Below are positions 32,547 to 61,221 of a stretch of 64,000 nt of DNA, piece after piece. The notes under the pieces are model-generated. The model worked only from the letters and a program-made list of their open reading frames with translations, was not told the DNA's origin and did no database searches. Source of the DNA: Eledone cirrhosa (lineage: Eukaryota); contig OZ024740.1 in the NCBI GenBank assembly GCA_964016885.1, positions 120,714,001-120,778,000 of the forward strand. The letters run 5' to 3'. The position numbers and the translations under genes are program-made. Within the stretch, counting starts at the first letter, position 1. Every line of letters starts with the position of its first letter.

Positions 32547-33203
32547 TATATGAAAGACGTAAATAAGAAAGTTATGAAAATTGACTTACTTACTAAAAGT
32601 TACTAAGTCAAAACATATATATCTGCTGACATAGGTATGCATCTGTATACATATGTCGGTAGATATATTAATTCTTTATAATTATCTCCAAACTATTTGT
32701 TGAGCAAAATTTGCCGAAATTACTACTGTGACTGATAGTAGTGGCTAGGCTCTGTCTTAATAGCACCCCCACTCCAAGCTGGTTAACCTCAGTGTCACGT
32801 GATTGATTCTTTTGAATTTGCCACTTGACCAAGAAGGCAGTGCATTTTTTAATGGCTTGGAATCTAGTCCCGCTCGCTTTTTTCCATCCACTGAATTATT
32901 TTTATATAAGTTCCCAATGTTCCCGCATTGCCTGGAAGCTTAGCCGAGAATAGACTCCCTGATGACGTAAGGCTTCTCTATAGTTATTACGTAACTATAT
33001 TTATCCCCTTACAGAAACTAATTAGTTGGAGTGAAATTTTAGTAAGTAAATCAATTTTCATAACTTTCTTATTTACGTCTTTCATATAATTGTTCTGCAT
33101 TCCCCTGCATAGAACCACAAAGTTACTAAGGCAAAACATATATATCTGCTAGCACATGTATGCATCTGTATACATATGTCGGTAGATATATTAATTCTTT
33201 ATA
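32547..33203 (+). mobile_element. HHR element: inverted stub plus 1.2 tandem units (523 bp period)
   Basis: 32547-32598 is the reverse complement of 33037-33088. 32597-32680 is directly repeated at 33120-33203. Confidence 0.85.
32954..33032 (+). ncRNA. Type I hammerhead ribozyme with extended helix II
   Basis: ACTCC-CTGATGA-c-GTAAGG...CCTTAC-a-GAAA-CTAATTAG-TT-GGAGT. Confidence 0.85.
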
Positions 33204-56912: not shown

Positions 56913-57590
56913 AAATATTTAAAAAAAGAATAATAGATACAATATACCAATTTTTTCTTAGTCCCGACTGTACAGTTTCGCTGGTCACTATGCAAACATG
57001 TTATATCATAGATATGTAACATTGTTGTGAGGTAAGCCAGCTTATCAAGAGAGCACCTCAGGGAAGAGCCCTAACTACATACGTCTGTAGCATGCGAGAA
57101 AATTTCAGTGATACACCGGTCAAGAAAGGGGATTAATCCCTTGTAGCAGTGAAAATATCTCAGAAGGCGGATTGTCTCTAACTCCCTGACGGTAGAGTAA
57201 CCACGGAAGTATAGTGACTGCTTTAAAGCAAACACTATATACACTTCTAGACAACCTTACCACCCTTCTGTAGCCTATGTATCATATCAATATCTCCCTC
57301 CGCCTTATGAGATATTTTCACTGCTACAAGGGATTAATCCCCTTTCTTGACCGGTGTATCACGTGATAGAGTCTCCCTCCGCCTTTCTGAGATTTTCTCG
57401 CATGCTACGGACGTATGTAGTTAGGGCTCTTCCCTGAGGTGCTCTCTTGATAAGCTGGCTTACCTCACAACAATGTTACATATCTATGATATAACATTTT
57501 TGCATAGTGACCAGCGAAACTGTACAGTCGGGACTAAAGTGAAAAGTAGGTATATTGTATCTATTATTCCTTTTTATAATATTTTATATA
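56907..57590. mobile_element. Large fold-back palindrome (~260 bp arms, 127 bp spacer) with a long-helix-II HHR variant in each arm (56962-57065 -, 57430-57533 +)
   Basis: The arms are near-perfect reverse complements. HHR: TTCC-CTGAGGT-GCT...AGC-GAAA-CTGTACAG-TC-GGGA (A9U). Confidence 0.88.
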
Positions 57591-57970
57591 ACTCTGATAT
57601 CGTGTCAATTTAATTATTTCGATTATCTTGTCTCTCATAATCATAGAGTAACAATGGTTAAGGTCGACAACATACAATCTCACATACTTGCGAAAAATAT
57701 ATGTTTATATATACATGTATATGTATGTATACACATATATTTGTATACCTCTCATTATTGTATATACATATATATATATATATATGAGGAACCAGTAAGA
57801 CCCCGACAGCTGAGCTCAAGCCGTTTCGACGGCTAATTCTGGATATATATATATATATCCCCCACCCCCACTCTCAAGCGTGAACCTAATATTAACACTT
57901 TGTACTGCCTCTTCGCATTGTTTTCGTTTTTTTTTTCAGTTTTAACTATAATATATATATATATATATAT

Positions 57971-58306
57971 ATATCATAGGTATATATTGAGTTAGAAACT
58001 CATATTAGTCTCTTACAATTAAATAGCTCAGGGGAATAGATTTTTCCGAGCCGTGTAATATAATTGAATATAAAAGAGATATAAACACAGATATATACAT
58101 ATATGTGTTCAAATCTTAAGGGACAAGATTCACTAGGGTGAAAAAAATACCAACTAAGAATATTAGGGTTTGCCAGACTCAATTTAAAAGAATAAATCAA
58201 GAAAATAAATATAAACCGATATTGGGGCTCGGAAAAATCTATTTCCTTGAGCTATTTAATTGTAAGAGACTATTTTGAGTTTCTAACTCAACATATACCT
58301 TTGATA
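57971..58306. repeat. Inverted repeat (~80 bp arms, ~175 bp spacer) at the head of the double-HHR element
   Basis: 57971-58050 pairs with 58226-58306. Confidence 0.88.
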
Positions 58307-58472
58307 TATTCAGCTACTTCAGTTTGAAGAGCTAATTTAAATGTCGAGTAAACTTGACAGTTATTTTTAGTAGTATAGGTTTATGAGACACGCTAGGTTC
58401 ATGTGCGTTATTTTATATACGCACACTATTCAGTCTTCTAAGATACTTAGAAGTGAAGGGTTTATTAATTTC

Positions 58473-58552
58473 ACACCCACTGATGAGCAAAAGAATTGTT
58501 AATTCTCTTCACTAAAATTGCGAAACAGCATCACCAAAAGCTGTCTGGGTGT
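58473..58552 (+). ncRNA. Canonical type I hammerhead ribozyme (GUC site, predicted cleavage after 58545)
   Basis: ACACCCA-CTGATGA-GCAA...TTGC-GAAA-CAGC atcaccaaaa GCTG-TC-TGGGTGT. The core is intact and all three helices pair fully. Confidence 0.93.
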
Positions 58553-58688
58553 CTGGCAGTTGCCCCAATTGGTTTAGTTTGCTAATATCAGCCAGTCTGC
58601 TAATATGCTAATCAGGCCGAACAGTCACTGTATATTTTAGAAAATATATTTTCACTAGCACTGAGAGCTGGCAGGTGAACAGTGAGCT

Positions 58689-58728
58689 GTACTGATGAAT
58701 GGTGATACCCAGAAACATTAGTGTCTGC
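58689..58728 (+). ncRNA. Second type I hammerhead ribozyme (GUC site)
   Basis: GTA-CTGATGA-a-TGG tgatac CCA-GAAA-CA ttag TG-TC-TGC. Confidence 0.65.
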
Positions 58729-58910
58729 TGTTCTGTTTACATGCCAACACAAGAGCACGAATGAAGTGTTCATTCTACTGACATGGCTTTAAAAATGAGG
58801 CTTGTTTGCGTATTTGCAAACGAATCGAATGTTATTATTAATATTCGAAAATGTCAGATACATTTATTGTATTCAGCCATGTAGAGCGAAACTTTTCTTT
58901 TATATATTTG

Positions 58911-58973
<63 letters not shown>

Positions 58974-59039
58974 TATATATATAATTGGTGTGGGATGCTT
59001 AAAGCATTCGGATGCGGTAGGCCGTTTGTGATATATATA

Positions 59040-59060
59040 TACCAAGGATCTCACACATTT

Positions 59061-59114
<54 letters not shown>

Positions 59115-59141
59115 GTTAGAAAATGTGTGAGATCCTTGGTA
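59040..59141. repeat. 23-bp perfect inverted repeat enclosing (TA)n
   Basis: TACCAAGGATCTCACACATTTTC ... GAAAATGTGTGAGATCCTTGGTA. Confidence 0.88.
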
Positions 59142-59715
59142 CAGTTAGGTATATTTTTAAAAAAGGAAAAGAATGACTTCACTTATAGTTCTAAACAATT
59201 TAATTTAATTTTATAATATTATAATTTTACAATTTGGTTTGGTAGATCTAATAAGTTCTTTGTTAACTTCGGTGGGGAGATTTTTTAAAGATACTTGGTT
59301 AACTTTCCTGGAGAATTTTCTCACATTCGTCGGATAGGACTGATATAAATTCGATTGCTTTTCCACTTACTCAATGTTTTAAATTAACCAGTATCATCAA
59401 GATACCAAACAAAAGGAAAGCCCAGCGCACACTAATACGTTAAATAGTGATAAAAACGATTTTGTGTGGGTAGAGATTTCGATTCTCTGGCCCCGAACAA
59501 ATGCATTAGTTTCTGTTACTATATTTGCTAGTGACAACCCATATGGGACTGGCGTGTACAGAAGTTAAGCAATGCTATTAAACATTACGTAATTGACTAA
59601 GAGCAGCAGCATCAGCAATGAAATAACCTCTCGCAACAGGTCAATAAGACTCTACTTCAGTAAAATTCTACTTCGGTATGAGTACTCCTTCGTCTCAGCC
59701 GTCAACCACACACGG

Positions 59716-61154: not shown

Positions 61155-61221
61155 TATTTTATCTGATGAGGACGTACTGTTGAAGATAGCTCAGTACCTC
61201 TGAAATATGTATAATAAAATA
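61155..61221 (+). ncRNA. Type I hammerhead ribozyme
   Basis: TATTTTAT-CTGATGA-GGAC GTACTG...CAGTAC CTCT-GAAA-TATGTA-TA-ATAAAATA. Confidence 0.75.

What the first reader, a model, noticed from the sequence alone, without database searches (positions are those of the whole stretch)
58473..58728. Two different hammerheads 180 nt apart on one strand
Seen: a fully canonical HHR (7-bp helix I, stable non-palindromic helix III, GUC) followed by a second, sequence-unrelated GUC HHR. Predicted cuts after 58545 and 58725 would excise a 180-nt RNA with ligatable ends. A stable helix III implies monomeric activity, unlike typical minimal PLE HHRs. The homologous copy at 20498-20790 starts downstream of the first cut. 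This is the best candidate here for an active ribozyme.
Basis: partly seen in the sequence, partly recalled or inferred. Interest (0 to 1): 0.75.

Follow-up and report, generated by a model that had tools for sequence, protein, structure and literature searches.

The report
Chance junction of two ribozyme repeats
The two predicted self-cutting RNA motifs belong to two different high-copy jumping repeats that meet at this spacing only here in the genome, so the proposed 180-base RNA is likely an accident; the lasting point is that the first motif's family keeps an unusually long extra base-pairing that likely braces or gates its cutting.

Summary
Both hammerhead (HHR) motifs are at the stated places, but they are not one unit. 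HHR1 belongs to repeat family A (unit about 505-525 bp) and HHR2 to unrelated family B (unit 437-444 bp). The exact motifs occur 427 and 2,364 times in the 3-Gb genome; together at this spacing, once, here. The 180 nt is 24-26 nt of A, a junction and a 5'-truncated B. HHR2 has an A·A mismatch at the base of helix II, a palindromic helix III and two substitutions against its family's majority. As a monomer it is predicted to fold into an inactive hairpin (13 kcal/mol more stable). HHR1 is canonical and likely active in its family. Six subfamilies keep helix I paired with different sequences. All keep an interrupted 13-20-bp pairing between loop II and the 5' flank, with compensatory changes, likely a pseudoknot brace. 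Copy 5' ends are modestly enriched at the cut. Both families look like non-autonomous Penelope-type/retrozyme repeats in (TA)n; no autonomous partner was found in 50 loci. No RNA or cleavage data. This scan noted similar retrozymes and pseudoknot-braced HHRs on other DNA of this genome.

The parts
57951..57974 (.). (TA)n target, left flank
   Evidence: sequence
57965..58228 (-). Family A inverted arm (reference positions 337-595), running to the family's 3' end at the left (TA)n
   Evidence: 6.2% from column majority
58226..58569 (+). Family A (subfamily A1) forward arm, reference positions 7-344, carrying HHR1
   Evidence: 4.7% from column majority
58452..58471 (+). 5' flank strand that pairs with loop II of HHR1 (distal 9 bp at 58452-60; the proximal part carries a U·U in this copy where most copies have C-G)
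58473..58552 (+). HHR1: type I hammerhead, canonical core, predicted cut after 58545
58494..58513 (+). Loop II strand complementary to the 5' flank (predicted pseudoknot or switch)
58570..58586 (+). One-off A|B junction
58587..58905 (+). Family B, 5'-truncated copy of a 437-444-bp unit, ending at the family 3' end
   Evidence: 4.8% from column majority
58684..58733 (+). HHR2: type I-like motif with A·A at the base of helix II and palindromic helix III; predicted cut after 58725; predicted inactive as a monomer
58906..58984 (.). (TA)-rich target, right flank
   Evidence: sequence
20497..20801 (-). Second, independent family B copy with a degenerate HHR2; holds no family A sequence

Best explanation
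The two hammerhead motifs sit in two unrelated high-copy non-coding repeats (A and B) whose motifs meet at this spacing only at this locus, likely through one Penelope-type insertion event, so the 180-nt RNA is likely not a biological unit. Shown: the family split, the uniqueness of the pair, unit lengths, tandem and inverted arrangements in (TA)n, and covariation of HHR1's helices and of the loop II/5'-flank pairing. Inferred: each family is transcribed, cut by its own HHR into unit-length RNA (A about 515 nt, B about 437 nt), possibly circularised by a host ligase, and copied by a borrowed Penelope-like RT/GIY-YIG enzyme at (TA)n. At this site, likely, one DNA end copied A RNA from its 3' end back to position 337; the other end copied B RNA and then jumped onto the A RNA at position 344. 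HHR1 likely cuts as a monomer. The part of the flank pairing next to helices I and II likely acts as a pseudoknot that docks them. The full 13-20-bp helix is probably too long to coexist with helix II and may be a folding intermediate or brake. HHR2 would need a second B copy (dimeric helix III), which this locus does not supply in cis.
For: A and B matches split at the junction: the 40 scored candidates for 58430-58800 match from about 58587 on, those for 58320-58586 end at 58569-58575. Pair pattern: 1 hit, control 0, against 427 and 2,364 single-motif hits. Among the 299 loci fetched, only the window and L006 (different junction, 666 nt apart, (TA)n between) have both HHRs within 1 kb on one strand. 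B dimers: 4 of 4 checked same-strand pairs are 437-444 nt apart. A-superfamily dimers are 525 and 545 nt apart. The arms abut at reference 337/344, both outer ends are family 3' ends in (TA)n, and divergences are alike (4.7, 6.2, 4.8%). Helix I of 6 bp or more in 70 of 84 distinct copies, with different sequences per subfamily. Flank:loop II pairing of the variable part: the cognate assignment is the best of 720 subfamily permutations; 77 of 84 copies beat at least 99 of 100 shuffles. On 15 rows, 90.8% of cells are paired and 6 pairs change on both sides; slid controls give 37-56%. The superfamily pattern has 1,125 hits, control 0. 5' ends at 0/+1 of the cut: 3 of 39 A1 copies (0.23 expected, P about 0.002). 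HHR2 active fold is 13 kcal/mol above the minimum here, with a median of 6.6 in 48 B copies.
Against: No RNA evidence and no cleavage assay. Under uniform placement only 0.005 pairs are expected at this spacing (0.17 within 1 kb), so the junction needs shared targeting or co-insertion rather than pure chance; the window was also picked because of the pair. The pair search used exact motifs, so diverged recurrences could be missed, and DNA searches scored only 40 candidates each. No A or B terminal match to 50 GIY-YIG loci (about 10,600 candidates exist), so dependence on Penelope enzymes is inferred. No unit-length same-strand A1 dimer among the first 100 of 427 listed hits. B copies also show 2-3 of 40 5' ends at their cut, so family HHR2 may cut in some context. 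With its flank, a nested-fold program puts HHR1 in an inactive fold (it cannot model pseudoknots). In one search the count of pairs with two-sided change was reached by 46 of 500 shuffles, the rows are related, and only A2-A5 were aligned.
Confidence: 0.82

Rival explanations
1. Sequential insertions: A and B inserted at different times into the same (TA)n, and a later deletion (or priming inside an existing B) removed the spacer. This is still a one-off with no 180-nt unit.
For: L006 shows A, (TA)n, B nested in one microsatellite. Many families share these targets.
Against: No (TA)n at the junction. The forward arm ends within 8 nt of where the inverted arm begins (344 vs 337). Divergences are similar.
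Confidence: 0.3
2. One reading: HHR1 and HHR2 act together to release a functional 180-nt linear or circular RNA.
For: Both motifs are on one strand, 180 nt cut to cut. Hammerhead products have ends that RtcB can join (PMC7229834 section 16). The spacing is unlikely under uniform placement.
Against: Single occurrence. The segment is a splice of two families. HHR2 is non-canonical, carries two substitutions here and is predicted locked. The hybrid helix I is only 2 bp.
Confidence: 0.05
3. The flank:loop II pairing is not a catalytic brace but an inhibitory or timing switch, or a structure read by the borrowed reverse transcriptase, that keeps HHR1 off in unit-length RNA.
For: The pairing totals 13-20 bp while only about 4-9 nt return to helix II (the geometry is inference). 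The flank is transcribed first. Predicted probability of the distal helix is 0.96 and of helix I 0.0 in a nested model. The distal GAAGUGA stretch is near-invariant, though this is partly imposed by the search pattern.
Against: The covarying proximal pairs start directly at the ends of helix I and helix II, where stem I-II pseudoknots are known to raise activity (PMC3088659, passages).
Confidence: 0.3
4. The junction is an assembly artefact.
For: The region is repeat-rich. No listed contig piece of three runs of one sample crosses the junction (the tool states that a hole proves nothing).
Against: It lies in a chromosome-scale contig (one search gives 443 Mb for C1), with a coherent two-arm structure and both outer ends at family 3' ends.
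Confidence: 0.04

Closest known systems
Metazoan non-LTR retrozymes (Cervera and de la Pena 2020, PMC7229834: passages plus sections 14 and 16 read, supplements not opened; Li, Clavereau and Pollet 2026, bioRxiv 10.64898/2026.07.22.740005: parts 1-3 of 5 read, supplements closed)
   Same: Non-coding, AT-rich repeats with one type I HHR per unit; monomers and dimers; co-exist with PLEs; mollusc (mussel) examples lack the usual loop 1-loop 2 contacts.
   Different: Units of 437 and 505-545 bp exceed the 170-400 nt of the 2020 paper but lie within the 51-972 bp of the 2026 preprint. Copies are mostly dispersed partial tandems with inverted arms. The long covarying loop II/5'-flank pairing was not in the parts read ('pseudoknot' occurs 0 times in PMC7229834). 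No circRNA shown here.
PLE pseudo-LTR hammerheads (min-HHR and palindromic-helix-III variants; Cervera and de la Pena 2014, PMC4209133, parts 1-2 of 4 read)
   Same: HHR2 has an unpaired nucleotide after A9 and a small palindromic helix III, so it is predicted to work as a dimer. Insertions are partial tandems with inverted 5'-truncated arms at (TA)n (PMC8557442, passages).
   Different: HHR2 lacks a G10.1-C11.1 pair directly next to G12 and has a long (about 16 bp, bulged) helix I. HHR1 has a stable non-palindromic helix III. No RT/EN ORF was found linked to either.
Pseudoknotted type I hammerheads such as human C10orf118 (Perreault et al. 2011, PMC3088659: passages and section 8 read)
   Same: [quoted passage not shown]
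   Different: The reported pseudoknots in the passages read are 4-6 bp. Here the complementarity runs 13-20 bp in two or three covarying segments, in a high-copy animal repeat superfamily.

Membership tests
Type I hammerhead (HHR1) | Core C3 U4 G5 A6 N7 G8 A9 / G12 A13 A14 A15.1 / U16.1 H17 in type I order | tested here: met
   CUGAUGA, GAAA, GUC
Type I hammerhead (HHR1) | Three helices closing the core, G10.1-C11.1 | tested here: met
   7, 4 and 5 bp; helix I kept with different sequences across subfamilies
Type I hammerhead (HHR1) | Stem I-stem II tertiary contact | tested here: inconclusive
   Covarying flank:loop II pairing; whether it braces or blocks is untested
Type I hammerhead (HHR1) | Self-cleavage | not testable with these tools
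   Indirect only: 3 of 39 copy 5' ends at 0/+1
Type I hammerhead (HHR2) | Conserved core | tested here: met
   CUGAUGA, GAAAC, GUC
Type I hammerhead (HHR2) | Paired 10.1-11.1 (usually G-C) next to the core | tested here: not met
   AG...CA in 42 of 48 distinct motif copies; this copy can form U-A only after an extra A
PLE-type dimeric HHR (HHR2) | Short palindromic helix III able to pair between two copies | tested here: met
   10-bp self-duplex, -8.8 kcal/mol; same helix III in 44 of 48 copies
Non-LTR retrozyme (family B) | Tandem units each with an HHR | tested here: met
   4 of 4 checked same-strand pairs 437-444 nt apart
Non-LTR retrozyme (family A) | Tandem units each with an HHR | tested here: inconclusive
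   Met in sister subfamilies (525 and 545 nt; 547 and 543 nt). For A1, partial tandems of about 489-525 bp but no unit-length dimer among 100 of 427 listed hits
Non-LTR retrozyme | Expressed as circular RNA | not testable with these tools
   No RNA holder listed
Non-LTR retrozyme (the 180-nt A|B segment) | Repeated unit bounded by two copies of one HHR | tested here: not met
   One occurrence, two different HHRs
Autonomous Penelope-like element | RT and GIY-YIG ORF flanked by the pLTR | tested here: not met
   No ORF of 100 aa or more overlaps 57100-59500. A or B did not match as a pLTR in 50 GIY-YIG loci, a small share of the genome's PLEs
Non-autonomous PLE derivative | Partial tandems, inverted 5'-truncated arm, microsatellite target | tested here: met
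   features from PMC8557442 passages

The most novel reading that the evidence does not exclude
Family A is a superfamily of animal retrozyme-like elements, with at least six subfamilies, whose type I hammerhead is braced or gated by a 13-20-bp covarying helix between loop II and the 5' flank, a natural two-state ribozyme; and this locus records a Penelope-type enzyme switching from one family's RNA to another's within a single two-ended insertion.
Probability: 0.4. Interest if true: 0.55.

Novelty: new variant of a known kind. Interest (0 to 1): 0.36.

Why it matters
The headline claim (a designed two-ribozyme cassette releasing a 180-nt RNA) falls, and the elements are of a known kind. What remains useful is a natural series of six diverged hammerheads with a long covarying loop II/5'-flank helix. 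It allows a direct test of how animal type I hammerheads without the usual loop-loop contact reach activity, or delay it. A junction between two families in one insertion also bears on the open question of how Penelope-type enzymes make tandem and inverted insertions.

Tried and rejected
Rfam on the whole window gave mostly microsatellite-driven miRNA hits (best 150 of 316 shown); on 58400-58800 only Hammerhead_3 at E 1.2. Sequencing runs: no RNA holder listed. Three contig runs of one sample and unknown kind were laid: they hold both families and no listed piece crosses the junction, which is not evidence either way. Autonomous partner: A and B were compared with 50 GIY-YIG loci (30 best hits plus 20 long-ORF places); tail matches were low-complexity T/TA runs or separate insertions. 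A genome pattern search for A1 dimers could not be run because the gap was too long, so dimers were judged from position lists (first 100 rows each) and 7 fetched stretches (L286, the 329-nt A1 pair, did not print as two full motifs). Pfam on 17 window ORFs: RT fragments at 2399-3460 and 9473-10144, no GIY-YIG. A possible pairing of the HHR1 3' strand with HHR2 helix II (8 bp) has low predicted probability (0.01-0.2) and was dropped as the reason for HHR2 inactivity. A permuted (type-SGC) wiring, noted by the scan for other families, does not apply: the strand order here is canonical. Paper searches for an octopus/cephalopod HHR description or a pseudoknotted retrozyme HHR returned no listing that names this family; not all listed papers were opened. 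The words 'twin priming' with 'Penelope-like' returned 3 unrelated listings; the twin-priming geometry is recalled from LINE-1 work. In one search subfamilies A1 and A6 were left out because MAFFT mis-registered them, and the two A3 rows are shifted by one column. In the B cut-site count L257 is an ambiguous hit; both counts are given. L276 and L277 may be one duplicated insertion.

Full report
Observation. The sequence and a descriptor scan confirm two hammerhead-like motifs on the + strand. HHR1 (58473-58552) has a canonical core, a 7-bp helix I, a 4-bp helix II with a 27-nt loop, a 5-bp non-palindromic helix III and GUC at 58545. HHR2 (58684-58733) has the core and GUC at 58725, but a 3-bp helix III with a self-complementary loop and no G-C pair at the base of helix II. 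The cuts are 180 nt apart. Rfam recognises neither at threshold.

Two families. Searching the 3.0-Gb own genome with 58430-58800 returned copies that match only from about 58587 (40 of 2,069 candidates scored). Searching with 58320-58586 returned a different set ending at 58569-58575 (40 of 2,026). A query across the junction was spanned by 1 of 41 matches, the window itself. The exact 15-mer of HHR1 occurs 427 times (control 1) and the 14-mer of HHR2 2,364 times (control 31). The two together at 180-210 nt spacing occur once. In the 299 loci fetched, the only other A/B neighbour within 1 kb on one strand is L006, with another junction and (TA)n between. The copy at 20497-20801 is family B only, which is why it starts after the first cut. 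Uniform placement predicts 0.005 such pairs, or 0.17 within 1 kb. The meeting therefore reflects shared (TA)n targeting or co-insertion, but it is not repeated.

Anatomy of the insertion. Between two (TA)-rich runs lie an inverted A arm (reference 337-595, 3' end at the left run), a forward A arm (7-344) and a 5'-truncated B copy whose 3' end meets the right run. The three pieces differ from their family majorities by 6.2, 4.7 and 4.8%. The A arms abut in RNA coordinates, and both outer ends are 3' ends. The simplest reading (inferred) is a single two-ended insertion in which the cDNA primed on B jumped to the A template where the other cDNA had stopped. Sequential insertion plus deletion is the main rival. 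Partial tandems, inverted 5'-truncated arms and microsatellite targets are PLE hallmarks (PMC8557442, passages). The genome has about 10,600 GIY-YIG candidates, but neither family matched as a terminal repeat in the 50 loci examined.

Family B and HHR2. The unit is 437-444 bp, with same-strand dimers carrying two motifs (4 of 4 checked). The motif has AG...CA at the base of helix II in 42 of 48 distinct copies and the same palindromic helix III in 44 of 48. That helix can form a 10-bp duplex between copies, as described for PLE hammerheads that act as dimers with low activity (PMC4209133). As a monomer, the core's CUGAUG pairs with the helix III strand. The active fold lies a median 6.6 kcal/mol above the minimum in 48 copies and 13 kcal/mol above it in this copy, which differs from the majority at 58700 and 58729. 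After both cuts the hybrid helix I would have 2 pairs, so self-ligation is not expected; RtcB could join such ends in principle (PMC7229834 section 16). Against full inactivity, 2-3 of 40 B copies begin at 0/+1 of the cut (0.19 expected).

Family A and HHR1. The A1 unit is about 505-525 bp. Diverged relatives found beside PLE loci led to further subfamilies. A pattern fixing only the flank octamer, the core and the first and last bases of helix II gave 1,125 hits, control 0. Among 84 distinct copies sorted into six subfamilies (one unassigned), helix I reaches 6 bp or more in 70, with a different sequence in each subfamily. Loop II is complementary to the 20-25 nt just 5' of helix I. For the variable part alone, the cognate flank-loop assignment is the most stable of 720 permutations, although A2 flanks pair better with A1 loops than with their own. 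For the whole pairing, 77 of 84 copies beat at least 99 of 100 shuffles. On a 15-row alignment of A2-A5, 90.8% of cells are paired, 6 pairs change on both sides (46 of 500 shuffles reach that count; 0 of 500 reach the 23 cells), and slid controls pair 37-56%. The proximal segment begins directly at the ends of helices I and II. There, stem I-II pseudoknots are known to raise activity, including a 5-bp one in the human C10orf118 hammerhead (PMC3088659). The full helix of 13-20 bp leaves only about 4-9 nt to return to helix II, so it is probably not all formed in the active state (inference). A nested-fold program favours the flank helix over helix I. Without the flank, the A1 active fold is a median 2.9 kcal/mol above the minimum (22 of 23 copies) and 1.7 in this copy. 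Of 39 A1 copies chosen by sequence after the cut, 3 begin at 0/+1 (0.23 expected, P about 0.002) and 8 within -6 to +8 (1.8 expected). This is modest support for cutting in cells; the numbers are small and stalling at structure could contribute. Dimers with two HHRs exist in sister subfamilies (525-547 nt), and A2 copies are 97-100% alike, so that subfamily is young.

Comparison. Both families work like non-LTR retrozymes or non-autonomous PLE derivatives (PMC7229834; bioRxiv 10.64898/2026.07.22.740005, which also reports that only 1 of 9 Xenopus dimers cleaved in vitro). B meets the tandem criterion; A meets it in sister subfamilies; expression and circles are untested. The 180-nt segment is not a retrozyme unit. 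Searches listed no paper naming these families or a long loop II/flank helix in retrozymes; supplements were not seen and could hold such motifs. Earlier notes of this scan describe retrozyme arrays and pseudoknot-braced HHRs of other descriptions in this genome; sequence look-ups with A and B returned nothing.

Verdict. The motifs are real, the two-ribozyme cassette is not. HHR1's family is a new structural variant of a known kind. Interest 0.36.

Noticed in passing
L152-L181 (subfamily A3), e.g. L153:1566-1690: A whole subfamily (1,926 first-look candidates) shows U4>A in the core (CAGAAGA) in nearly all 30 loci aligned, while keeping helices I-III and the flank pairing. Hits were ranked by likeness to one such copy, so the share is biased. 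U4A is not among the variants named in PMC3088659 section 8.
   Followed up: partly
L121-L150 (A2), L118:4130-4316 (A4), L182-L204: Subfamilies A2, A4 and A5 have a roughly 64-nt helix III region (20 contiguous pairs in L118); A2 copies are 97-100% identical, so recently active.
   Followed up: partly
window 4307-4367 (-) and 61155-61221 (+): Two more type I HHR-like motifs of other families (8-bp helix I, palindromic helix III, AUA site). The 4.3-kb one recurs in several fetched loci and may also pair loop II with its 5' flank.
   Followed up: no
window 32951-33035 (+) and 26975-27056 (-): Weaker HHR-like descriptor hits, probably decayed copies or chance.
   Followed up: no
L100, L104, L105, L108, L115 and L106, L110, L118: HHR motifs lie in or near GIY-YIG loci: one recurrent minimal form with palindromic helix III downstream of the nuclease, and one with a stable helix III.
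   Followed up: no
window 57000-57500: Large inverted-repeat structure (about 57000-57130 against 57370-57495, with internal repeats), typical of a two-armed insertion of another repeat.
   Followed up: no
window 2399-3460 (-), 8536-10144 (-), 19500-20440 (+): LINE-type RT fragments (one followed by a PHD finger; one beside a C2H2 ORF); the 19.5-kb one is recognised by eye only.
   Followed up: partly
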